Source: an uncultured Candidatus Saccharibacteria bacterium
GTDB taxonomy: Bacteria; Patescibacteriota; Minisyncoccia; Phycocordibacterales; CAZPGN01
Assembly (NCBI GenBank): GCA_964586635.1
Contig: CAZPGN010000001.1
Span: 72,932-136,931, forward strand
DNA: 64,000 bases
Direction: 5' to 3'
The notes under the pieces are model-generated. The model was given only the letters and a program-made list of their open reading frames with translations. It was not told where the DNA came from and ran no database searches. Made by a program: the position numbers and the translations under genes. Shown piece by piece: positions 10,563-42,843 of this stretch (position 1 is its first letter; each line of letters opens with the position of its first letter).

Positions 10563-11531
10563 TTATTTTTCGGGTACCCAATGTAATTGACACAGATTCC
10601 CGTGCGTTTTGTGGAAATTGTATGCGGATGTCGCCGCGACCGCACCCATTGCCGCGCCAGTAATGTCCTGCTTGAATGACCCAAATAGGTTGACTATGTC
10701 TCCCGCGGCAAATACTCCTTCGACATTTGTACGCATCATGGAATCAGTTGCGATATATCCATGATCATCGAGGGCCACTCCGAGCGAGACCGCAAGCTCG
10801 ACATGCGGAATCGCTCCGATTTCTACAAAAATCCCGTCTACTATAAGATCGGTCGAGCCCTTGTATTTCTTCGATAGGACTATCCTTTCTAATTTTTTTT
10901 CTCCGATAAGTTCGGCTATGGTTGTATCGAAAATAACTTCAACCTTATCTCCGAGCGATTTCATTTGCTCGAGATTGATCGGTTCGGCATTCAACTCACT
11001 CTTGTTTAGTGTTATGAGATAAATCTTCTCTGCATATTCTGCCGCAAGATTGAGACCTTTTACAGATGCGTCTCCCCCGCCAACGATCGCGATGGTCTTT
11101 CCTCCATAGAGCGGACCGTCGCAAGTAATGCAGAAATGGACGCCACGGCCTGTCAGCTCGGTTTCATTAGGTAGATTGAGATGGCGGCGCTCCGTACCGA
11201 TGCCAAACATTACCGTGCCGCCGAAATAACGTTTGTCTTTTACTGTAAGCGCAAAACAACCTCCGCCCTGCGAGATGGCAGTAACTCGACCGTCAAGAAA
11301 TAATGCCCCAAGCTCTTTCGCCTGGTCGCGCATTATCTTCATAAGCTCATAACCATCGACATGTGGAGCGCCGGGATAATTATGAATAGTGCCTGCCGTT
11401 GCCGTCTCGCCGCCAAACTTTTCTCCAATAACAAGCACGCGCATTTTATATCTGCCAGCATATAGCGCCGCGGACAGCCCAGCTACCCCCGAACCAATGC
11501 AAATGAGATCGTAGCGGTCATCCATACTCAA
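10563..11531 (-). CDS. trxB: thioredoxin-disulfide reductase
   Basis: GSGVAGLSAALYAGRY is an FAD GxGxxG/A motif. The redox-active CxxC is present (HFCITCDGPLYGG). A second nucleotide-binding motif IVGGGDASV is present. 322 aa. Confidence 0.85.
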   Translation of the reverse strand: MSMDDRYDLICIGSGVAGLSAALYAGRYKMRVLVIGEKFGGETATAGTIHNYPGAPHVDGYELMKIMRDQAKELGALFLDGRVTAISQGGGCFALTVKDKRYFGGTVMFGIGTERRHLNLPNETELTGRGVHFCITCDGPLYGGKTIAIVGGGDASVKGLNLAAEYAEKIYLITLNKSELNAEPINLEQMKSLGDKVEVIFDTTIAELIGEKKLERIVLSKKYKGSTDLIVDGIFVEIGAIPHVELAVSLGVALDDHGYIATDSMMRTNVEGVFAAGDIVNLFGSFKQDITGAAMGAVAATSAYNFHKTHGNLCQLHWVPEK

Positions 11532-11777: not shown

Positions 11778-11813
11778 ACGCGAAAAAACATTACTTCATA
11801 ATACAATAATCGT

Positions 11814-11823
11814 AGTATACCAC
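11814..11823 (-). promoter_or_regulatory. candidate extended -10 promoter (TGgTATACT on the minus strand) for the nrdH-like/trxB operon
   Basis: The reverse complement of 11814..11823 reads GTGGTATACT, about 37 nt upstream of the ATG at 11777. Confidence 0.3.
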
Positions 11824-11990
11824 ATCGAAAAAAGAAATCCTCGCGTTCGCCTGGATATAAATTAGCCTGCAAACTTTTGTTCGGTTAGCATGCGAATTCA
11901 CCCACAACGTAACTGCTCACAACTCTCTGCAACGTCGCTTAAGGATCGGCAAGCACCTTCGTTGCCTCCATCTGTGGGTTCGCTATACGA

Positions 11991-12803
11991 TTACAATGGG
12001 CTTTTGATCTTCTTCAATCTTGGATTGGTCACTTGTGTATATACTTGTGTGGTTCGTATGTTGCTATGCCCGAGCAACTCTTGTACATAGCGTACATCAG
12101 TGCCATTTTCTAGTAAGTGTGTAGCAAACGAATGACGCAACGAATGAAAGGTTGCCAATTTGCTAACTTTCGCACTTGTTAAACTTTTACGAAACATTTT
12201 TTGCAGAGATGTTGTCGTAAGCTTGCCACCTCGATTAGAGGCAAAAACAAAATCACTCATATTTTTGCCTGCGATTATATTTCGCAAATCGTTTTGTAAT
12301 TTTTCTGGCAACACACTAATCCTGTCTTTCTTGCCTTTTGCTCCCTTGATGTGCACAACAAGCTCATTGATGTCCAAATCTGCTACTTTTAGTTCTACAA
12401 CCTCGCTGACTCTCATGCCACAAGCATAACCAAGCGAAATCATCAGTTTATATTTTGAATTATCAGTTACTTCAATAATTTTCCCAATTTCCGCCCGCGA
12501 TAACACGACGGGCAACTTTTTGTTTCTCTTCGCAAATTTTAGGTCAATCTTCTGCGGGTCTTTTAAGACTTCAGCATATAAATATTTCACGGCATTGAGC
12601 GCCAGATTGATGGTTTGCGGGGATTGTTTTCGTTTGTGTTTGTCTAGCAGAAAGTCCTCAACCGCTTTTTGCTTATCTTTAATTCCTTTTTCTTTAGAAA
12701 AACTGATATACTCTCTTATATAGAGTAAGTATGCTTTACGAGTCTTTGTGGAGTAATTTCTAAGTTTTAAAATTCTTTCAGTTTTGTCTAAAATATTTTC
12801 CAT
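11991..12803 (-). CDS. site-specific tyrosine recombinase (phage integrase / XerC/D family)
   Basis: The C-terminal catalytic region HSLRHSFATHLLENGTDVRYVQELLGHSNIRTTQVYTQV has the R...HxxR...Y signature with the catalytic Tyr. The N-terminal SAM-like core-binding domain is present. The start is trimmed to MENILDK. Confidence 0.8.
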   Translation of the reverse strand: MENILDKTERILKLRNYSTKTRKAYLLYIREYISFSKEKGIKDKQKAVEDFLLDKHKRKQSPQTINLALNAVKYLYAEVLKDPQKIDLKFAKRNKKLPVVLSRAEIGKIIEVTDNSKYKLMISLGYACGMRVSEVVELKVADLDINELVVHIKGAKGKKDRISVLPEKLQNDLRNIIAGKNMSDFVFASNRGGKLTTTSLQKMFRKSLTSAKVSKLATFHSLRHSFATHLLENGTDVRYVQELLGHSNIRTTQVYTQVTNPRLKKIKSPL

Positions 12804-12925
12804 AATCAAATAGTAGCAAAGTTTGCATAACAAACAAGATATTGCTACAATATGATCACATAGTTCGTATAAAAACCAGTTGTACGAAATTGAAAAATTT
12901 TTTTAACTATTAATAAATTATTTTT

Positions 12926-13261
12926 ATGTCTCAAGTCACCATCAAACAAGCTCAACAAATAGTCGATGACTGGATTAAAAGTATTGGTGTCCGCTATTTT
13001 TCTGAAATGACCCAGCTGGCTCAATTAACGGAGGAAGTGGGCGAAGTCGCACGAATAGTCTCAAGAACTTATGGCGATCAAAGTTTTAAAAAGACGGATG
13101 ACAAAAATTTGTCTGATGAATTGGCGGATGTATTATTCGTGCTAATCTGTCTTGCTAATCAAACAGGCGTTGACTTAACCGAGGCATTTCAGAAAAATAT
13201 GGATAAAAAAACGAACAGAGATAAAGACCGACATAAAAATAATTTAAAATTAAAGAAGTAA
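12926..13261 (+). CDS. MazG-like nucleoside triphosphate pyrophosphohydrolase
   Basis: 111 aa. EEVGEVARIV…DELADVLFVLICLAN is the MazG/NTP-PPase EExxE…D motif. Confidence 0.65.
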   Translation: MSQVTIKQAQQIVDDWIKSIGVRYFSEMTQLAQLTEEVGEVARIVSRTYGDQSFKKTDDKNLSDELADVLFVLICLANQTGVDLTEAFQKNMDKKTNRDKDRHKNNLKLKK

Positions 13262-13461
13262 AAATTTTTCAACATCGCACAACACGGCATATCTGGTTTC
13301 GCTACGCTACACCCAAATTGCTACGCAACTTCAGATATGTCGAAACGTTATACGCCATAATAAAAAGCCTCTATTGATTTTTTATAATAATTTTGGCAAT
13401 TTATTAGGTGAGGTCGAGATAACTTCAACAATTCAACATTAATTATCTAACATAAAAAATT

Positions 13462-13938
13462 ATGCCTAAAAAACCAGAAACATTTGGAGGATTTTCTCCT
13501 GAACCAGGGAGCAAAGATGAAGAAACAAGACAAGTTGAAAGTCTTGAGGAATGGCAAAAATATTGCGAAGAAATGTCAGAGGCGCGCGGAGAACCAAAAG
13601 AAGAAGATTGGGATAGAATAATGCAAGACGAAATGGAGTCAGAAGCGAGAGACGTAGAGGTTTATATTAGAAGAGCAAGATTAGCAGGAGACACGCGTAC
13701 TATTAGAGAAATAATAGATGATAAGGATGAGTTGGAAATTAAATTAAATGCATATACGGAACAAAGAAAAAAAGATGGTACCTATACTAATCCTTGGAAT
13801 ATACTCGTAGATTTTATGAAAGAGAATGTTTCTTCGTATGCTGCTTATCTCCAAAAGAGACAAGAAGAGGACGCTGAAGCCGATCCGTGGAATATCTATC
13901 TCGAATGGAAAGTTGGAAAGGACTTGAAAGATAAATAA
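13462..13938 (+). CDS. hypothetical highly acidic protein (Glu/Asp-rich)
   Basis: 158 aa, strongly acidic (EEWQKYCEEMSEARGEPKEEDWDRIMQDEMESEARD…). No recognisable family. Confidence 0.45.
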   Translation: MPKKPETFGGFSPEPGSKDEETRQVESLEEWQKYCEEMSEARGEPKEEDWDRIMQDEMESEARDVEVYIRRARLAGDTRTIREIIDDKDELEIKLNAYTEQRKKDGTYTNPWNILVDFMKENVSSYAAYLQKRQEEDAEADPWNIYLEWKVGKDLKDK

Positions 13939-14139
13939 ATTGCCAAAATTCTTAAACGAATAAGGAAAGCGGCTTTTTATTACAGCGTATAACAATGAAT
14001 ATGCGGTTCATGAAATTGCGCTTCTTGATTTTTCATGGAGGCGCAATTTCTTTCACCCATATTTGCCTCCGCTTCGCTACAGCAAACATCGCATATTCAT
14101 GAACGTTAGGCGAAATTTCATTTTTTACATCTATCACAT

Positions 14140-14844
14140 ATGCCCGAAAATTTTGAACCTACAATAGAACAAACTAAGCCATATTGGCAAAGAATGCGAG
14201 AGTTAGAAGCTCAACTTTTTCCTGAATTTAGGGATGAGCATTTTTGTATTGATTCACCAGAGACAAACAATTTTTATTTCGCCCCGAATGTACATTTCAA
14301 AAAAGATTTGGTAACAGAAGCAGATGTCGAAAATTTTAGAAAAGATCCAAAGCGACAAATGTTAAGCGTCGGGTCTGGTCCTGCATATTTAGAAAGACTG
14401 TTGGTACATTTAGGTGTAAACAAAGACAACATCATCCTTGCAGATAAAGAGCCGAGGGATTTGCCGACCGACTTCAAAACTAAAATTTTCGACATGTTTG
14501 GAGAATGGCCTGAATTCGAAGATGATCAAAAATTTGATCTAATAATATTTCCAGAAAATCCGTCAATCAATGTTCACTATGACTACGGCGAGGAGCGAAT
14601 TCAGGCGTTCACCTCACTCTTTGCAAAAGCATTGCAGCACTTGAAGCCAGAGGGCGAAATAAAAATTACTGGTAATCCAAACAGTGAAGAGATAACGGAA
14701 AAAGTTGAGCATGAGCTAAGGAAAGCAGGTTATGATGTTACGGTTCAAAATTTTTCCAACAAAGGAAAGGAATCATTAATTGTAGTAAAAAATGAAACAT
14801 CGCCTAACAGCGTGTATGAGGTTCAAGAAAAAGTGCGTAAATAA
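14140..14844 (+). CDS. putative class I SAM-dependent methyltransferase-like protein
   Basis: Motif I-like LSVGSGPAYLERLL, post-I acidic IILADKEP and motif II-like FDLIIFPEN are arranged in Rossmann-MTase order. Confidence 0.4.
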   Translation: MPENFEPTIEQTKPYWQRMRELEAQLFPEFRDEHFCIDSPETNNFYFAPNVHFKKDLVTEADVENFRKDPKRQMLSVGSGPAYLERLLVHLGVNKDNIILADKEPRDLPTDFKTKIFDMFGEWPEFEDDQKFDLIIFPENPSINVHYDYGEERIQAFTSLFAKALQHLKPEGEIKITGNPNSEEITEKVEHELRKAGYDVTVQNFSNKGKESLIVVKNETSPNSVYEVQEKVRK

Positions 14845-15066
14845 TTTTCAAAGGTTGCATTTTTTCTTTCACCCAAATTGCGCTGACGATAATCAGAGTT
14901 TAGTGATACAATGAAAGTATTGAGATAAGCAATGTTTAATCTAAATAACACGGCGCAACTTCGCATCATGCGGAAACGTTATGCGCCATAATAAAAAGCC
15001 GCTCATAAATTTGACTTATTTTTCCTTTAGGATATAATAGAATCGTTACAATTCACTTCAAACTAT

Positions 15067-15285
15067 ATGCGCAAAATTGACTTAAAAAATGTGGTGTGGA
15101 AAGAAGGAAAATATTATGTTTCCTGGAACCTAAACACGGCGATTTCTAGTTTTGGCGACACCAAAAAAGAAGCCCTTTTGGCGCTCCAAGAAGCATTAGA
15201 ATTATATTTTGAGGACATCCCAATTTCCAAAATAAACAAAGTGGAACGACCCGACTTGGTCCCATTTGTTTTTCAGCATGCCTAG
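15067..15285 (+). CDS. hicB: HicB-family antitoxin (UPF0150-like)
   Basis: 72 aa. It is immediately upstream of, and overlaps, a HicA-like toxin. The WKEGKYYVSWNLN…GDTKKEALLALQEALELYFE pattern matches the HicB N-terminal domain. Confidence 0.55.
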   Translation: MRKIDLKNVVWKEGKYYVSWNLNTAISSFGDTKKEALLALQEALELYFEDIPISKINKVERPDLVPFVFQHA

Positions 15286-15499
15286 ACCTATTCCCCTGAA
15301 ACAGGTAATCCGAGTCCTTAGAGATAAGGGCTTCTTTTTTGTGTCGCAGAAAGGTTCACACGCAAAGTTTCGTAAACCAGGAAGTCCAACTCGTACTGTA
15401 ATTGTAAAAATGGCAAAGAAAGAAGTACCGTACGGAACCTTTCAGTCGATTTTGCTTCAATCAGAATTAAAAGAAAGTGATTTTCGAGAGGAAAAATAA
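15278..15499 (+). CDS. hicA: HicA-family mRNA interferase toxin
   Basis: MPRPIPLKQVIRVLRDKGFFFVSQKGSHAKFRKPGSPTRTVIVKMAKKEVPYGTFQSIL matches the HicA/YcfA fold (KGSHxxF…P.H). The ATG overlaps the hicB stop (ATGCCTAG). Confidence 0.7.
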   Translation: MPRPIPLKQVIRVLRDKGFFFVSQKGSHAKFRKPGSPTRTVIVKMAKKEVPYGTFQSILLQSELKESDFREEK

Positions 15500-15534
15500 G
15501 TCAAACTTCAGATATGCGGATACGTTGTGTCGGG

Positions 15535-15557
15535 TCAAAGGTGTCAGGAACCTTTGA
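15535..15557. repeat. degenerate REP-like hairpin (TCAAAGGTGTCAGGAACCTTTGA) near the right end of the island
   Basis: Stem TCAAAGG/CCTTTGA. The loop TGTCAGGAA resembles the loop GGTCAGGAG of the canonical repeat. Confidence 0.3.
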
Positions 15558-15893
15558 CCAATAATGTTTAGTTCGTAATGCAATCAATAGTATAGCACTT
15601 AAGAAAAAAGAAAGCCTCGCGGATGCGAGGCGATCGATGAATCTCGGCGCATAAAACTGAAACCAAGGAGGTGAAACTAGTCTGCAGCGATTGAAGCGCC
15701 GAGAACTAAATGAACTAATTCGAGATTTTAATGCGAGGGCAATTAGCTTTCGGAAAACTGATTCTCACTGTAAAACTCTGCCCTCGCACTAGTAGTTTAG
15801 CATGGGATATCGAGCAGTCAATTACATTGCAATGTGAACAATAATGCGTAGAATGAAATCGGTACTGAACATTCAACCACGCGAGGAGGATGT

Positions 15894-16229
15894 ATGCAGT
15901 ATGAGAGATGGCTCTTCGTGGTGATTGCGCTCGCAGGGTATGTTCTCACGACGGACCCCGCGCATGGTTTTCAGCCAATTCCGCCTTACAGGACAACGGT
16001 GCAAAGTGCTGCGCCTCCCATGATGCGCGCAATCGCCGAGACCATTCCAGAGCGGTGCCGCTCACCTCGACCCGGGCGCGGTGAGGGCTATTTCATGTTC
16101 ATCCGCGTTGCTCCACATTGTGCGTGCGGACATGAACTCACGCTTCGAAACCCATTCAGGATGCGCCTGAATGTGCACTGCTTCGTTCACAAATTCCCTG
16201 AACCAATGACGGACTGCATTCGCCATTGA
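15894..16229 (+). CDS. hypothetical protein (signal-anchor-like N-terminus)
   Basis: 111-aa ORF preceded by AGGAGGATG. Hydrophobic N-terminus MQYERWLFVVIALAGYVLT. Confidence 0.35.
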   Translation: MQYERWLFVVIALAGYVLTTDPAHGFQPIPPYRTTVQSAAPPMMRAIAETIPERCRSPRPGRGEGYFMFIRVAPHCACGHELTLRNPFRMRLNVHCFVHKFPEPMTDCIRH

Positions 16230-19743: not shown

Positions 19744-21621
19744 TTACAGAATATTGGGCGATTCAATTCCAAGCAGGTAAAGACCCCTCTCAAGGACTAT
19801 CCTTACTGCATGAGTTATGACAAGACGATGGGGCGCGGCGAGGCCGCCATCCGCAAGCACGGGATAGCGCGCGTAATTGCTCTGATAATCGCGGGCAAGC
19901 TCAAATACGAAATTACCTATGATGCCAGGGTTATCAGTCCGCTCGGCCTTCAGCACGAGGTCTGGGAACTGAAGGAGCTTTTTGACAAGAGCGCGCTCAT
20001 CATTCTCAAGCGAGAGAGTCTCGATCGAACGCGCCGTTTCGACCTTCTTGCCATACTTTCGAATGATGCCACGCGCGCGAGCAAGGGCATACATCACATA
20101 CGCTCCGCCTGATTCCTCAAACTCTCCGAGCATCGCGTTTGTATCAGGATCCAGATCTACTGCATGGACCCTGTCCTTTCTAAGGTCGTTAAATATGATA
20201 GAGCCGCGCGCGAGCATGTCCGCATTTGCCTCAATTTCTTCACGCGATAGTTGCGCCGCGGCGGCGTACGCACGCGAGGCGTATTTTTTTGCAAAATGCT
20301 CACGTGCCGCCTCAAGCAAGGAGAATACATCTCCCGCGCCGCCGCGGCTCGAAAGCTTGGCGCCTGTTGCGGCATCCACATACAATCCGAGCGCAACATG
20401 AACAAGCGAACGTTCTGTACCATCAACAATACCGATCTCTCGTGCGGCACGGAACAGTTGCCTGAAATATGCCGACTGTTCCTCGCCGACTACATATGCG
20501 ATTTTTCGCGGATTAAATGCTGAGATGCGATATTGGATCGCAGCCAAATCTCGAGTCGCATACACCGATGCGCCATCACTGCGCCTTACAACAAGATACT
20601 CATCGTCTTCGAGCGGCACGACGGCTGCGCCGTCATGGTTCACTACTGTTCCTGCCGCAAGCCCTTTTTCAACAATACTCTGCCCACGGGCTGGAAAAAA
20701 GCTCTCTCCTATCGTGTGGTCAAAGCTGATGCCAAAGCGAGCGTAAAATGAATCAAACTCTGATCTGCTCCATCCGACCATCTCTTGCCAACGCCGCACG
20801 GTTTCGGGATCTCCAGATTCAAGTGCTCGAAAACGCGCATCCGCACGCGCCTTGAATTCATCCCATGCCAAACCGCCATCTTTTTCAAGCAGACGATAAC
20901 GGAGGTATATTTGATAGAGCTCTTCATTCTTGTCCTCCAAACGAGATGGTTCGGCGTGCCATCGATCCCACCCCTCTAGAACGAAACCGAATCCTCCCCA
21001 ATCATTTATATGATTTATGCGCTGAACCGTATATCCCGCGGCTTCATATATGCGCGACAATGACTCCCCAACGATGGTTGAACGAATGTGCCCCGCGTGA
21101 AGATGTTTGGCAACATTTGGACTCGAGTATTCGCAAACAGCGGTCTGGTCCGCAAAAATATCCGCGTCTCCGTATCGTTCTATCCCGTCGGCATCCTTCG
21201 TTTCCTGTACAGTTGCAAGCGATGAAAAAAGTCCGACGTCCGTAAATGACACATTGATGTACATTCCAGACGGGGCAATGTGCCCGATATGCGGATTTTC
21301 CAGAGCGAGTTGCGCAAAAAGTACAAGGAGTTTTGGAACAACTTCTTCTGCGTACAGCGCCGCCCCCTTCACTTTCAGCAATCCTGGTAGACGGATAGAG
21401 ATGTCGGCCCCGAATTTTTCTGTATCTATGAACGAGAACAGTATCTCCTCTCCTTCATAGATAGAACCCATTAAACACTTTTTTATTTGCAACTCGATAC
21501 TGGGGAGAAAGTATGCCGCGTGCGGCACATAGCCCCTGCTGGCACGCTTCTCAATAACACGCGCTGAAACTCGCTTGATTTCGAGTTCACGGGCTCTATT
21601 AAACTCTGCTAGAGCATTCAT
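19744..21621 (-). CDS. argS: arginine--tRNA ligase
   Basis: SPNVAKHLHAGHIRSTIVGESLSRI is a class I HIGH-like motif. The C-terminal DALR anticodon-binding region is present. 625 aa. Confidence 0.85.
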   Translation of the reverse strand: MNALAEFNRARELEIKRVSARVIEKRASRGYVPHAAYFLPSIELQIKKCLMGSIYEGEEILFSFIDTEKFGADISIRLPGLLKVKGAALYAEEVVPKLLVLFAQLALENPHIGHIAPSGMYINVSFTDVGLFSSLATVQETKDADGIERYGDADIFADQTAVCEYSSPNVAKHLHAGHIRSTIVGESLSRIYEAAGYTVQRINHINDWGGFGFVLEGWDRWHAEPSRLEDKNEELYQIYLRYRLLEKDGGLAWDEFKARADARFRALESGDPETVRRWQEMVGWSRSEFDSFYARFGISFDHTIGESFFPARGQSIVEKGLAAGTVVNHDGAAVVPLEDDEYLVVRRSDGASVYATRDLAAIQYRISAFNPRKIAYVVGEEQSAYFRQLFRAAREIGIVDGTERSLVHVALGLYVDAATGAKLSSRGGAGDVFSLLEAAREHFAKKYASRAYAAAAQLSREEIEANADMLARGSIIFNDLRKDRVHAVDLDPDTNAMLGEFEESGGAYVMYALARARGIIRKYGKKVETARSIETLSLENDERALVKKLLQFPDLVLKAERTDNPGIIGNFVFELARDYQSNYARYPVLADGGLAAPHRLVITHAVRIVLERGLYLLGIESPNIL

Positions 21622-40020: not shown

Positions 40021-40087
40021 ACAATATCGTCAGTGTACCGCGAGAATTTATTTTTGCCAAAATGATAAATTTACTGTATAGTGCTGT

Positions 40088-41972: not shown

Positions 41973-42044
41973 GACCACGTGGCGAAGTGGTAACGCAGCG
42001 GTCTGCAAAACCGCAACGCGCGGGTTCGATTCCCGCCGTGGTCT
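41973..42044 (+). tRNA. tRNA-Cys (anticodon GCA)
   Basis: Acceptor GACCACG/CGTGGTC, discriminator U (typical Cys identity element). Anticodon arm GCGGT-CTGCAAA-ACCGC. T arm GCGGG-TTCGATT-CCCGC. Confidence 0.85.
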
Positions 42045-42338
42045 TAAGGCGGGAATCGAAGCCGACCCGAGAAAGCTAAACTGCTTTAGGTTTCTCGGGC
42101 GGCAGGCTCCGAAGGAGACTGTCTCGATGCGCCAAGAGGCGCCAGAGACAGTCGGGTGAGGAGGATTCCCGCCGTGGTCTTAAGGCGGGAATCGAAGCCG
42201 ACCCGAGAAAGCTAAACTGCTTTAGGTTTCTCGGGCGGCAGGCTCCGAAGGAGACTGTCTCGATGCGCCAAGAGGCGCCAGAGACAGTCGGGTGAGGAGG
42301 ATTCCCGCCGTGGTCTTAAGGCGGGAATCGAAGCCGAC
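42045..42338 (+). repeat. tandem direct repeat: 136-nt unit x2 plus a 22-nt third partial copy, beginning right after the tRNA-Cys discriminator; each unit ends with a 17-nt copy of the tRNA-Cys 3-prime end (GATTCCCGCCGTGGTCT)
   Basis: Units 42045..42180 and 42181..42316 are identical by eye; partial copy 42317..42338. Each unit has a 10-bp closing stem (GGCGGGAATC…GATTCCCGCC) and long internal hairpins (GCCGACCCGAGAAA…TTTCTCGGGCGGC; GACTGTCTCGATGCGCC…GGCGCCAGAGACAGTC). Confidence 0.9.
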
Positions 42339-42357
42339 TAGTGATTGTATATATTTT

Positions 42358-42439
42358 GCCCGGGTGGTGTAATTGGTAGCCACGATCGACTTAAGATCGG
42401 TTGCCGTAAGGCATGTGGGTTCGAGTCCCACCCCGGGCA
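42358..42439 (+). tRNA. tRNA-Leu (anticodon TAA), type II
   Basis: Acceptor GCCCGGG/CCCGGGC, anticodon arm ATCGA-CTTAAGA-TCGGT, variable hairpin TGCCGTAAGGCA, T arm GTGGG-TTCGAGT-CCCAC, discriminator A. Confidence 0.8.
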
Positions 42440-42450
42440 TTTTTGATGGG

Positions 42451-42473
42451 ATGAAGGGGTCAGGAGCCTTCAT
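42451..42473 (+). repeat. REP-like hairpin repeat copy (ATGAAGGGGTCAGGAGCCTTCAT) followed by TTTTG; terminator-like, after the tRNA-Leu(TAA)
   Basis: Plus-orientation copy of the 23-mer; …CCTTCATTTTGTC. Confidence 0.8.
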
Positions 42474-42628
42474 TTTGTCTGCCTATCGCGGTTGGAATAA
42501 ATGAAATAATCAGGGCACTTGTCAAGTACCTGAAGTTTGCTGATGAAAAGAAGCAGCCTTTTACGAAATACTTCGGATGCTATGAAAGTTTGAGAGACGA
42601 TGATTCGTGTGTTATTTTGTATTGACAT

Positions 42629-42701
42629 CCCCCTATAGCTCAATTGGTAGAGCAACGGACTCTTAATCCGCAGGTTGTAGGTTCGATTCCTACTGGGGGG
42701 A
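42629..42701 (+). tRNA. tRNA-Lys (anticodon CTT)
   Basis: D arm GCTC-AATTGGTA-GAGC, anticodon arm ACGGA-CTCTTAA-TCCGC (A27/C43 mismatch), T arm GTAGG-TTCGATT-CCTAC. Acceptor CCCCCTA/TGGGGGG with an unusual C1-G72. Discriminator A. Confidence 0.7.
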
Positions 42702-42716
42702 CACTTTATTAGTGGA

Positions 42717-42745
42717 TTGTCAATCTCGTCTGCGACATATATACT
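42717..42745 (+). promoter_or_regulatory. sigma70-like promoter for tRNA-Leu(TAG): -35 TTGTCA, 17-nt spacer, -10 TATACT
   Basis: TTGTCA at 42717..42722, TATACT at 42740..42745. tRNA start is at 42759. Confidence 0.4.
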
Positions 42746-42758
42746 GAAGCAAGTGTGC

Positions 42759-42843
42759 GGGCGAGTGGCGAAATTGGCAGACGCGCCAGCCTTAGGAGCT
42801 GGTGGAGAAATCCGTGGGAGTTCAACTCTCCCCTCGCCCACCA
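42759..42843 (+). tRNA. tRNA-Leu (anticodon TAG), type II, CCA encoded
   Basis: Acceptor GGGCGAG/CTCGCCC, D arm GCG…CGC, anticodon arm CCAGC-CTTAGGA-GCTGG, variable hairpin TGGAGAAATCCG, T arm GGGAG-TTCAACT-CTCCC, discriminator A, CCA. Confidence 0.85.

What the first reader, a model, noticed from the sequence alone, without database searches (positions are those of the whole stretch)
11827..15621. AT-rich recombinase island flanked by 19-bp direct repeats, inserted upstream of the nrdH-like/trxB promoter
There is a sharp drop in GC across about 3.8 kb. A phage-integrase-family tyrosine recombinase sits at the left edge. The cargo is typical of mobile DNA: a MazG-like protein, a very acidic protein, a methyltransferase-like protein and a HicAB toxin-antitoxin pair. 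The island is bounded by GAAAAAAGAAATCCTCGCG at 11827 and GAAAAAAGAAAGCCTCGCG at 15603.

The right repeat overlaps a GCCTCGC…GCGAGGC hairpin. The left repeat lies just upstream of an extended -10 element for the redox operon. This is consistent with a small integrative element and its attL and attR sites.
Basis: partly seen in the sequence, partly recalled or inferred. Interest (0 to 1): 0.65.

Follow-up and report, generated by a model that had tools for sequence, protein, structure and literature searches.

The report
Minimal integron in a CPR bacterium
The AT-rich island is a small integron (a gene-capture platform with a recombinase, a docking site and four gene cassettes) of a type I could not find described; relatives are widespread in ultra-small CPR bacteria, and its recombinase lacks the protein insertion that the literature treats as essential for integron function.

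Summary
In detail: GC drops from 51% to 36%, a tyrosine recombinase sits at the left edge, and the 19-mer repeat is present. The repeat is actually a 56-nt, ~81% identical module.

The island is not generic cargo. It is an integron-type platform:
- a 270-aa IntI-like recombinase (11991-12803, minus strand);
- an attI region with crossover at G|TT (12879|12880);
- four co-oriented cassettes (MazG; an acidic orphan; a weak methyltransferase-like ORF; hicBA);
- three structured attC-like sites and one truncated site.

In about 30 CPR genomes, DNA homology covers the recombinase gene plus attI and stops at that GTT. Beyond it lie different cassettes. A covariance model finds 46 sites in CPR loci, and 45 of them lie upstream of and antisense to the recombinase. 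Stems covary. Each cassette's R'' box pairs with its own start.

The enzyme's best matches are IntI (TIGR02249; VchIntIA, 2A3V). It lacks the IntI-specific insertion and scores below the family cutoff.

The 56-nt repeat duplicates a host module: the terminator tail of a putative sRNA plus the nrdH promoter. It probably marks where the whole platform was inserted. No empty site was found.

In 8 of 32 relatives a convergent tRNA gene abuts the recombinase.

Verdict: new variant of a known kind, high interest.

The parts
11790..11845 (.). Left copy of the 56-nt repeat module (19-mer core 11827-11845). On the minus strand it reads: half terminator stem, T-run, extended -10 TGgTATACT (11822-11814), then the start of the nrdH leader.
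11846..11990 (.). 145-nt segment between the left repeat and the recombinase stop. It is 48% GC, has no homolog in related platforms and no recombination site. Origin unknown.
11991..12803 (-). IntI-like tyrosine recombinase, 270 aa. Catalytic R131, K156/158, H220, R223, H246 and Y255 are present. The IntI-specific insertion is absent.
12804..12879 (+). attI region, conserved across CPR relatives up to the crossover G(12879)|TT. It contains a conserved outward promoter-like element, TTTGCA-18-TGcTACAAT (12822-12851).
12880..13347 (+). Cassette 1: MazG-like ORF 12926-13261. attC1 is 13277-13353 (GCACAAC...GTTATAC). The cassette start pairs with its own R'' flank at 21 of 24 positions.
   Evidence: (I7)
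13348..14105 (+). Cassette 2: acidic orphan ORF 13462-13938. attC2 is 13987-14111 (GTATAAC...GTTAGGC). Own-start pairing 21 of 24.
   Evidence: (I4)
14106..14978 (+). Cassette 3: weakly methyltransferase-like ORF 14140-14844. attC3 is 14802-14984 (GCCTAAC...GTTATGC), long and probably composite, and overlaps the ORF's 3' end. Own-start pairing 22 of 24.
   Evidence: (I6)
14979..15009 (+). 31-nt remnant resembling the start of cassette 2 (repeat family D2). Inferred to be left over from a deleted cassette.
   Evidence: D2, I5; inference
15010..15530 (+). hicBA toxin-antitoxin cassette with its own promoter, TTGACT-16-TATAAT (15011-15038). hicB-like ORF 15067-15285; hicA 15278-15499. It is flanked by a 29-nt inverted repeat (15007-15035 / 15480-15508). 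The terminal site is truncated: GTCAAAC at 15500-15506, then only the L'-R' half, ending GTTGTGT at 15524-15530.
   Evidence: (I2, D7)
15533..15559 (+). Strong hairpin (terminator-like on the plus strand) closing the array.
15566..15621 (.). Right copy of the 56-nt repeat module (19-mer core 15603-15621). It includes TGcTATACT (15597-15589, minus strand) and the T-tail and half-stem of the terminator.
15605..15821 (-). Host side of the right junction: a putative ~170-nt structured small RNA. Promoter-like site at 15821-15794; fold -67.6 kcal/mol, z=-5.8; terminator at 15631-15614. No Rfam family matches.

Best explanation
The island is a small chromosomal integron-type gene-cassette platform in a Candidatus Vogelbacteria (CPR/Patescibacteria) genome.

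Components:
- A 270-aa IntI-like tyrosine recombinase on the minus strand.
- Divergent from it, an attI docking site that also carries an outward promoter.
- Then four co-oriented cassettes. Each ends in an attC-like site, which is an imperfect palindrome RYxYAAC...GTTRxxY.

Proposed mechanism, by analogy with canonical integrons:
1. The site folds as single-stranded DNA. The bottom strand folds better.
2. The fold has an R stem, an asymmetric unpaired spacer, an 11-bp L stem and a branched tip carrying a conserved CCCAAATT/AACTTC motif.
3. The recombinase cuts between G and TT, excises cassettes as circles (attC x attC) and inserts them at attI (attI x attC).
4. The attI promoter expresses the proximal cassettes.
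5. The distal hicBA cassette has its own promoter and a truncated site, so it is fixed and may stabilise the array.

The enzyme differs from canonical IntI in lacking the insertion (I2 helix region) that contacts extrahelical bases. Most of these sites have fully paired L stems.

The whole platform was inserted into the intergenic module between a putative small-RNA terminator and the nrdH-trxB promoter. This probably happened by a single crossover of a circular DNA carrying a look-alike of that module, and it left the 56-nt direct repeat.

Shown here: the anatomy, the conservation break at G|TT, the structural covariation, the own-cassette pairing rule, the position and strand bias of the sites, and the absence of the insertion.

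Inferred: catalysis, single-strand substrates, promoter use and the mode of platform insertion.
For: 1. Recombinase identity. The best NCBIfam hit is TIGR02249 integron integrase (220 bits), ahead of XerA (201), XerD (178) and XerC (176). The best solved structure is VchIntIA 2A3V (E=9e-46), ahead of XerA (8.5e-38). The catalytic residues are intact.

2. Conservation break. blastn against about 30 CPR loci shows homology from the stop codon (11990-11998) to 12881-12891, which is at the GTTGTAC at 12879. It then stops. The attI alignment shows ~85 conserved nt ending at an invariant AAC|T.

3. Sites defined by sequence anchors only. 27 of 44 have >=9/10 Watson-Crick pairs in the anchored stem, against 0.7% for mismatched partners.

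4. Covariance model over 1.08 Mb. There are 56 hits. Of the 46 in CPR loci, 45 lie upstream of and antisense to the recombinase. All 18 loci with >=1 kb of upstream sequence have at least one site. The window has hits only at 13277-13353, 13987-14111 and 14802-14984.

5. Stem statistics. The L stem is 92.6% paired, with 10 of 11 pairs showing compensatory changes. Sliding the partners drops pairing to 30-40%.

6. Own-cassette rule. The R'' flank pairs with the cassette's own start at a mean of 13.0 of 24 positions, against 9.6 for the next cassette (p=0.002). The variable R-box positions are perfect in 12 of 28 own pairings against 2 of 28 for the neighbour (p=3e-4). In the window the values are 21, 21 and 22 of 24.

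7. Strand asymmetry. The bottom strand is more stable in 50 of 56 sites (p=1e-8).

8. Cassette layout and cargo. Intervals mostly hold one sense-strand ORF. Cargo is diverse and not shared between arrays.

9. Foreign composition. GC3 is 0.27-0.44 in the island genes, against 0.48-0.56 in host genes.

10. Assembly behaviour. Assemblies break at attI or inside arrays in the window's own population, and in about a third of relatives the contig ends just upstream of the recombinase.

11. Repeat module. It occurs only at the two junctions in the 64 kb.
Against: - The IntI-specific additional domain is absent. The literature describes it as necessary for integron recombination (PMC9668308 citing Messier & Roy 2001; PMC8138268).
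- The protein scores below the curated TIGR02249 cutoff (220 < 265).
- No recombination product was observed: no circular cassette junction, no alternative first cassette and no shared cassette between arrays.
- The distal part of this array is degenerate. attC3 is composite and the last site is truncated.
- The seed sites for the model were chosen by pairing. This is mitigated by the anchor-only test and by about 30 new sites.
- The insertion scenario for the 56-nt repeat has no empty-site support.
- The AT-rich block and the conserved unit end 145 nt inside the left repeat.
Confidence: 0.8

Rival explanations
1. First reader's model taken alone. The recombinase is an ordinary island integrase, the 19-mers are its attL/attR core sites, and the internal genes are unorganised cargo. 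The inner repeats are incidental.
For: The direct repeat is real and non-random, and it brackets the AT-rich DNA. The right copy is the 3' end of a putative sRNA gene. In 8 of 32 relatives a tRNA 3' end abuts the recombinase gene (P~2e-11), as in classical genomic islands.
Against: The internal sites are a conserved, covarying family tied to this recombinase in 18 of 18 testable relatives. Homology among relatives breaks at G|TT in attI. The repeat itself has no GTT/AAC core. The conserved unit ends at the stop codon, not at the repeat. There are no analogous flanking repeats in relatives. The recombinase is IntI/Xer-like without an arm-binding domain.
Confidence: 0.08
2. The recombinase is the CPR housekeeping Xer (the 'Cand' subgroup of Smyshlyaev et al. 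2021). It would act at a dif-like site next to its gene, and the modules would be Xer-exploiting elements (IMEX or pdif-module-like) stacked there.
For: Published classification treats candidate-phyla recombinases as Xer-related (PMC8138268). The protein has the simple Xer architecture and scores well against XerA, XerD and XerC. The modules are bounded by inverted repeats. GC partly tracks the host (r=0.62).
Against: It scores below all Xer cutoffs and higher against IntI. Distant stem halves (50-150 nt apart) covary, and that makes sense for folded DNA but not for duplex dif sites. The crossover motif is the integron G|TT, with the own-cassette rule. Composition is foreign in this host. Identity of 80-88% across CPR classes ignores taxonomy. 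Genomic contexts vary.
Confidence: 0.06
3. It is an integron-type platform, but a fossil in this genome. It would have been acquired once and be no longer active, with the array decaying.
For: attC3 is long and composite. A 31-nt cassette remnant precedes hicBA. The terminal site lacks its R''-L'' half. All contigs from the sampled population show the same cassette order.
Against: The recombinase ORF and catalytic residues are intact. Two attC sites score among the best of the family (76 and 62 bits). attI and its promoter are conserved. Independent assemblies break at attI (12863) and within the array, as expected if variants coexist.
Confidence: 0.2

Closest known systems
Sedentary chromosomal integrons of Proteobacteria (e.g. 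the Vibrio cholerae superintegron with VchIntIA, PDB 2A3V)
   Same: A divergent intI next to attI. Co-oriented cassettes that are mostly promoterless and single-ORF. attC sites with RYYYAAC/GTTRRRY boxes, conserved fold, variable sequence and high within-lineage similarity. Crossover at G|TT. Toxin-antitoxin cassettes with their own promoter. A better-folding bottom strand.
   Different: The recombinase is ~50 aa shorter and lacks the IntI-specific insertion (I2 region); Trp157 of IntI4 aligns to a Lys here. Most L stems are fully paired rather than carrying two extrahelical bases. The R stem extends to ~24 bp in the circular form. The tip is a branched structure with a conserved CCCAAATT/AACTTC motif. 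Arrays are short (1-8 or more sites). The hosts are CPR bacteria.
Archaeal integrons (Ghaly et al. 2022, PMC9668308)
   Same: Integrons outside classical bacterial phyla, found in MAGs, with attC folding conserved.
   Different: Archaeal IntIs are reported to retain the additional domain, which that paper treats as defining. The enzyme here does not have it.
'Cand' subgroup of Xer-related simple tyrosine recombinases (Smyshlyaev et al. 2021, PMC8138268) and Xer-dependent modules (IMEX, Acinetobacter pdif modules; the latter from my own knowledge)
   Same: A simple two-domain recombinase from candidate phyla. Modules are bounded by inverted sites and often carry toxin-antitoxin genes.
   Different: The sites are long covarying hairpins with integron core motifs, not 28-bp duplex dif sites. 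The enzyme is closer to IntI than to Xer by profile and by solved-structure sequence comparison. Whether the published 'Cand' subgroup is this same family was not tested.
tRNA/sRNA-targeting genomic islands
   Same: An AT-rich insert with a tyrosine recombinase, flanked by a direct repeat that includes the 3' end of an RNA gene. In relatives, a tRNA 3' end abuts the recombinase.
   Different: In the window the RNA gene is at the end far from the recombinase. The repeat is 81% rather than near 100% identical. No orphan tRNA fragments were seen in relatives. The recombinase has no arm-binding domain.

Membership tests
Integron (platform) | Tyrosine recombinase of the IntI lineage adjacent to the array | tested here: met
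   The best profile hit is TIGR02249 (220 bits), above XerA/XerD/XerC. The best solved relative is VchIntIA. It is adjacent to and divergent from the array.
Integron (platform) | IntI-specific additional domain near patch III (I2 helix) | tested here: not met
   phmmer aligns query 9-204 to IntI4 10-210 and query 195-270 to IntI4 242-317, so about 31-40 IntI4 residues have no counterpart. The TIGR02249 match is split, with the first stretch covering model positions 1-178 of 315. Nearly all close homologs are 270-281 aa.
Integron (platform) | attI next to intI; conservation ends at the G|TT crossover, followed by variable cassettes | tested here: met
   Homology with about 30 loci ends at 12881-12891. 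The alignment shows an invariant AAC|T boundary.
Integron (platform) | attC sites: R''(RYYYAAC)...R'(GTTRRRY) imperfect palindromes with conserved structure and variable sequence | tested here: met
   Anchor-only test: 27 of 44 sites against 0.7% in the control. Model hits. L stem 92.6% paired with 10 of 11 pairs compensatory. Position 3 of R'' is often A rather than Y.
Integron (platform) | Cassette 5' end derives from its own attC (circular intermediate, cut at G|TT) | tested here: met
   Own start versus neighbour start: 13.0 against 9.6 of 24 (p=0.002). The R box is perfect in 12 of 28 against 2 of 28 (p=3e-4).
Integron (platform) | Extrahelical bases on the L'' arm that set strand choice | tested here: inconclusive
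   Most sites have a fully paired L stem. About a fifth show a one-base gap at one pair (alignment). The bottom strand is nevertheless more stable in 50 of 56 sites.
Integron (platform) | Pc promoter driving cassettes | tested here: inconclusive
   A consensus-type TTTGCA-18-TGcTACAAT at 12822-12851 lies in the conserved attI block. No expression data.
Integron (platform) | Recombinase-catalysed cassette excision and insertion | not testable with these tools
   Needs a recombination assay or read-level junctions.
NCBIfam TIGR02249 integron integrase | Score at or above the curated cutoff (265 bits) | tested here: not met
   220 bits.
Xer recombinases (XerA/XerC/XerD) | Score at or above the curated cutoffs | tested here: not met
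   XerA 201 < 220; XerD 177.5 < 329.6; XerC 175.7 < 335.
Xer recombinases (XerA/XerC/XerD) | Acts at a 28-bp duplex dif site; housekeeping, syntenic, host-like composition | tested here: inconclusive
   Composition is foreign here. Contexts vary. GC partly tracks the host across relatives. No dif site was searched for, and only 64 kb of the genome was available.
RNA-gene-targeting integrative island | Direct repeats (attL/attR) that include the 3' end of an RNA gene | tested here: met
   The 56-nt repeat's right copy is the terminator tail of a putative sRNA.
RNA-gene-targeting integrative island | Empty site in relatives or in the population | tested here: inconclusive
   None found. All contigs belong to the same population and show the same arrangement. 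The nearest TrxB relatives are 49-63% identical, without synteny.
HicAB toxin-antitoxin | HicA toxin domain with an overlapping upstream antitoxin gene | tested here: met
   PF07927 E=8e-14. The 72-aa upstream ORF overlaps by 8 nt but has only a sub-threshold DUF7387 hit.

The most novel reading that the evidence does not exclude
A large clade of minimal IntI-like recombinases, centred on CPR/Patescibacteria but with ~40%-identical members in Atribacteria and Spirochaetes, runs genuine gene-cassette arrays without the IntI 'additional domain'. It uses a distinct branched attC. This clade is either the ancestral Xer-to-IntI intermediate or a streamlined derivative. In addition, the whole platform is itself mobile and inserts next to the 3' ends of tRNA or sRNA genes, making it an 'integrative integron'. 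CPR bacteria would then share a cassette pool that domain-dependent IntI detection (required to call complete integrons) would not link to a recombinase.
Probability: 0.5. Interest if true: 0.9.

Novelty: new variant of a known kind. Interest (0 to 1): 0.8.

Why it matters
Integrons are defined operationally by an IntI carrying a specific insertion. That insertion is considered essential, and it is reported as a defining feature in integron surveys. From my own knowledge, IntegronFinder's IntI call depends on it, but I could not run that tool.

If a 270-aa enzyme without the insertion runs cassette arrays, three things follow:
1. The structural requirement for folded-attC recombination needs revisiting, and a simpler enzyme becomes available for mechanistic and synthetic-biology work.
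2. The evolutionary path from Xer to IntI becomes testable with a living intermediate.
3. CPR bacteria have tiny genomes and an episymbiotic lifestyle, which makes their gene flow an open question. They would gain a dedicated, widespread gene-capture system. More than 7,700 homologs scored E<=1e-20, and the best 120 listed are 80-100% identical, from many CPR lineages.

Current annotation names these proteins generic recombinases or XerD, so the arrays are currently unlinked to a recombinase.

Tried and rejected
- Empty site. Exact-protein look-ups for the recombinase, NrdH, UDG and HicA returned only the same population, with the same arrangement. A metagenome scan with TrxB gave relatives at 49-63% identity without synteny.
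- Flanking repeats in relatives. Exact and blastn-short comparisons found hits only in L012, L018 and L035. The first two are the conserved 3' parts (T arm, and in L018 the acceptor end) of different tRNA genes. L035 is a palindromic terminator plus a tRNA-like end, arranged as an inverted rather than a direct repeat.
- 'Platform as a giant cassette' (a site downstream of the recombinase). There is no conserved element or model hit there. Only L015 and L018 share a hairpin-rich stretch.
- Is the 145-nt segment a decayed copy of the sRNA? There is no similarity.
- G|TT at the edge of the left 19-mer as a crossover point. Rejected, because the right copy's perfect hairpin implies that GCCTCGC...GCGAGGC is one native unit.
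- Third near-match of the 19-mer at 40039. It has 3 mismatches and lies in an unrelated gene-upstream region.
- Cassette mobility through the acidic orphan. Its single homolog (67% identity, L116) shares only the ORF and has no site.
- Rfam. No family covers the island or the putative sRNA.
- Viral contigs. None carries a close relative of the recombinase.
- Literature. Nine searches and six papers yielded no description of CPR integrons or of an insertion-less IntI. The library is open-access only.

Full report
**Observation**

The 19-mers are at the stated coordinates, 18/19 identical. None of 100 shuffles of the window matches them as often. The similarity is longer than reported: 11790-11845 versus 15566-15621, about 56 nt at ~81% identity. 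It ends sharply at ...CGCG. The part outside the 19-mer is significant on its own (0/300 shuffles).

GC is 36.4% over 11991-15530, against 51.0% elsewhere in the window. The gene calls hold, with two caveats. The 'methyltransferase' is only a sub-threshold hit, and the HicB partner is inferred mainly from position. The AT-rich block begins at the recombinase stop codon. The 145 nt between it and the left repeat are 48% GC.

**Anatomy**

Repeat analysis shows that the cargo is organised. Each ORF is bracketed by a 24-29-nt inverted repeat that starts GTTRRRC and ends GYYYAAC (I7, I4, I6, I2). Between ORFs lie 77-183-nt imperfect palindromes.

Reading these as integron sites gives the following map:
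- attI crossover at G12879|TT.
- Cassette 1 (MazG), 12880-13347, with attC1 at 13277-13353.
- Cassette 2 (acidic orphan), 13348-14105, with attC2 at 13987-14111.
- Cassette 3, 14106-14978, with a long attC3 at 14802-14984 that overlaps the ORF end.
- A 31-nt cassette-start remnant.
- A hicBA cassette with its own strong promoter (TTGACT-16-TATAAT) and a truncated terminal site (GTCAAAC, then only the L'-R' half, ending at 15530).

The recombinase (11991-12803, minus strand) is divergent from the array.

**Comparative evidence**

The host is a Candidatus Vogelbacteria MAG, GCA_016177055.1. More than 7,700 homologs of the recombinase scored E<=1e-20. The best 120 are 80-100% identical and almost all 270-281 aa. 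They come from Vogelbacteria, Spechtbacterales, Paceibacterota, Moraniibacteria, Gracilibacteria, Kerfeldbacteria and others. A scan of species-representative genomes returned 80 loci.

*Homology break.* blastn of the island against these loci shows homology from the stop codon to 12881-12891 in most loci. That is at the GTTGTAC I had taken as the attI crossover. There is nothing beyond it. A 16-sequence alignment shows ~85 conserved nt ending at an invariant AAC|T.

*Site structure without circularity.* My first site scan required stem pairing, so it was circular. I therefore redefined sites by sequence anchors only (YAACA...CCCAWAT...ACWTY...GTTR). 27 of 44 sites have >=9/10 Watson-Crick pairs in the anchored 10-mers, against 0.7% for mismatched partners. 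All sites in the CPR loci are upstream of and antisense to the recombinase.

*Covariance model.* A model built on 26 sites found 56 hits in 1.08 Mb. Of the 46 in CPR loci, 45 are on the array side. All 18 loci with >=1 kb of upstream sequence have at least one. Arrays reach 8 sites (L016) and 6 sites (L035, L039). In the window there are only the three sites inside the island.

*Pair statistics.* On the 56-site alignment the L stem is 92.6% paired, with compensatory changes at 10 of 11 pairs. Pairing falls to 30-40% when partners are slid. The bottom strand folds better in 50 of 56 sites (p=1e-8).

*Own-cassette rule.* This is the sharpest test. If cassettes are circles cut at G|TT, a cassette's R'' box and its flank should pair with that cassette's own start, not with the next one. 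Observed pairing is 13.0 against 9.6 of 24 positions (p=0.002). The variable R-box positions are perfect in 12 of 28 own pairings, against 2 of 28 for the neighbour (p=3e-4). In the window the values are 21, 21 and 22 of 24.

*Cargo.* Cassette intervals in relatives mostly hold one sense-strand ORF. Cargo is diverse and not shared between arrays: NUDIX, GmrSD, Bro-N, serine hydrolase, methyltransferase, MBL-fold, isochorismatase and peptide deformylase.

*Assembly breaks.* About a third of the relatives' contigs end 70-400 nt upstream of the recombinase. The window's own sister assemblies break at 12863, 13002, 14073 and 14833. This is expected for variable or repeated arrays.

**The enzyme**

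The best NCBIfam model is TIGR02249 integron integrase, at 220 bits against a cutoff of 265. XerA_Arch scores 201, XerD 178 and XerC 176, all below their cutoffs. The best solved relative is VchIntIA (2A3V, E=9e-46). The alignment jumps from IntI4 residue 210 to 242, while the query segments overlap. The IntI-specific insertion is therefore absent, and Trp157 of IntI4 aligns to a Lys. Catalytic R131, K156/158, H220, R223, H246 and Y255 are present.

Ghaly et al. 2022 (PMC9668308) treat the insertion as a defining feature of IntI. Smyshlyaev et al. 2021 (PMC8138268) call it essential for integron function. They place candidate-phyla recombinases in a Xer-related 'Cand' subgroup.

**Is it a housekeeping Xer?**

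Evidence against:
- GC3 is foreign here (0.37 against 0.48-0.56 in host genes).
- Similarity ranking ignores taxonomy: Saccharibacteria 84% and Gracilibacteria 83%, against same-class Harrisonbacteria at 82% and 71%.
- Genomic contexts vary.
- The covarying long-range stems and the G|TT own-cassette rule are integron properties, not dif properties.

Evidence partly for: the gene's GC tracks host GC across relatives (r=0.62), which suggests long residence in some lineages. A dual role cannot be excluded from 64 kb of sequence.

**The repeat and how the platform got here**

The right copy is the T-tail and half-stem of a minus-strand terminator (15631-15614). That terminator closes a putative ~170-nt structured RNA: promoter-like site at 15821-15794, fold -67.6 kcal/mol, z=-5.8, no Rfam hit. 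The right copy also includes a TGcTATACT promoter and the start of a leader.

The left copy carries TGgTATACT driving the nrdH-like/trxB operon. TGnTATACT is the host's strong promoter type and also precedes tRNA genes. The T-run-plus-promoter module occurs only at these two places in the 64 kb.

The simplest reading is that one ancestral module (sRNA terminator, then nrdH promoter) was duplicated when a circular DNA carrying a look-alike integrated by a single crossover. This is an inference. I found no empty site and no analogous repeats in 15 relatives. The conserved unit ends 145 nt inside the left repeat. The repeat has no G|TT core of the kind this recombinase evidently uses.

Independent support for platform-level mobility comes from the relatives. 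In 8 of 32 CPR loci a convergent tRNA gene lies 8-250 nt beyond the recombinase stop. The eight are seven different tRNA species, six of them Ser or Leu. The expected number is 0.2 (P~2e-11). No shared junction motif was found. The geometry also differs from the window, where the RNA gene faces the distal end of the array.

**Mechanism**

Shown:
- platform anatomy;
- conservation break at attI;
- structure-conserved sites tied to the recombinase;
- crossover position implied by the own-cassette rule;
- strand asymmetry;
- absence of the IntI insertion.

Inferred from established integron biology:
- the enzyme binds duplex attI and folded bottom-strand attC;
- it exchanges one strand at G|TT, and replication resolves the junction;
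- the attI promoter expresses proximal cassettes;
- hicBA stabilises the array.

Speculative: the fully paired L stem, the ~24-bp extended R stem and the branched CCCAAATT/AACTTC tip substitute for the recognition of extrahelical bases that the missing insertion normally provides.

**Novelty and caveats**

Nine full-text searches and six papers gave no description of integrons in CPR bacteria or of cassette arrays run by an insertion-less IntI. The library is open-access only, so prior description elsewhere cannot be excluded. Source annotations call these proteins 'tyrosine-type recombinase/integrase', 'integrase' or 'XerD'.

Similar enzymes at ~40% identity, with similar sites arranged co-directionally, occur in an Atribacteria and a Spirochaetes MAG. 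The Atribacteria enzyme also best matches IntI4 and lacks about 40 residues around the insertion.

No recombination product was observed. The distal array here is partly degenerate. I could not run IntegronFinder.

I rate this a new variant of a known kind, with confidence 0.8 that it is an integron-type platform and about 0.4 that the 56-nt repeat is the scar of its insertion.

Noticed in passing
window 15605-15821 (minus strand): Putative unannotated structured small RNA of ~170 nt between the UDG gene and the island. Promoter-like TTGACT-16-TAAACT with an upstream TG; three hairpins; MFE -67.6 kcal/mol (z=-5.8, 0/200 shuffles); intrinsic terminator. No Rfam family at E<=1.
   Followed up: partly
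L011, L012, L013, L015, L018, L020, L033, L035 (just downstream of the recombinase match): A convergent tRNA gene lies 8-250 nt beyond the recombinase stop in 8 of 32 CPR loci. They are seven different tRNAs, mostly Ser or Leu. Expected 0.2, P~2e-11. No shared junction motif. This suggests that whole platforms insert next to RNA-gene 3' ends.
   Followed up: partly
L069:10019-10795 with sites at 12130-12209, 12865-12952, 20206-20288; L048:10001-10780 with sites at 12731-12891, 16047-16197: Recombinases ~40% identical in an Atribacteria and a Spirochaetes MAG have model-positive sites downstream on the same strand (co-oriented arrangement). The Atribacteria enzyme also best matches IntI4 and lacks about 40 residues around the insertion. 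The L048 enzyme was not tested for this. Insertion-less IntI-like enzymes may therefore extend beyond CPR.
   Followed up: partly
window 12863, 13002, 13385, 14073, 14833, 11799 (contig ends of L001-L008, L113): Independent assemblies of the same population, including the deposited MAG (contigs JACOVY010000015 and JACOVY010000014), break at attI, inside the array and at the left repeat. The MazG cassette is missing from the deposited MAG.
   Followed up: partly
window 15007-15035 / 15480-15508: A 29-nt inverted repeat (83% complementary) flanks hicBA. Its outer ends read aTTTGAC and GTCAAAC. The left arm overlaps the cassette's own -35 box.
   Followed up: partly
L035:4269-4330 and 10995-11056: A perfect 27-nt palindromic terminator plus a tRNA-like ...CCACCA end occurs on both sides of the platform in inverted arrangement. 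One copy follows tRNA-Ala.
   Followed up: partly
L015:1238-1321 and L018:8930-9014: A shared hairpin-rich element (83% identical) lies between the recombinase stop and a tRNA-Ser gene in two otherwise different genomes.
   Followed up: no
window 7936, 11822, 15597, 18679, 32567, 35139 (minus strand): TGnTATACT extended -10 elements recur. Two of them lie just upstream of tRNA-Gln and tRNA-Tyr. This is probably the host's strong promoter type.
   Followed up: no
window 41973-42843: Cluster of four tRNA genes (Cys, Leu, Lys, Leu) within 900 nt. Ordinary.
   Followed up: no
L018, L026, L034, L044, L046 (record titles): Close relatives of the recombinase (50-83% identity; L046 only 42%) sit in MAGs labelled Actinomycetota, Deltaproteobacteria or Gammaproteobacteria. 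This may reflect mis-binning of CPR contigs or transfer beyond CPR.
   Followed up: no
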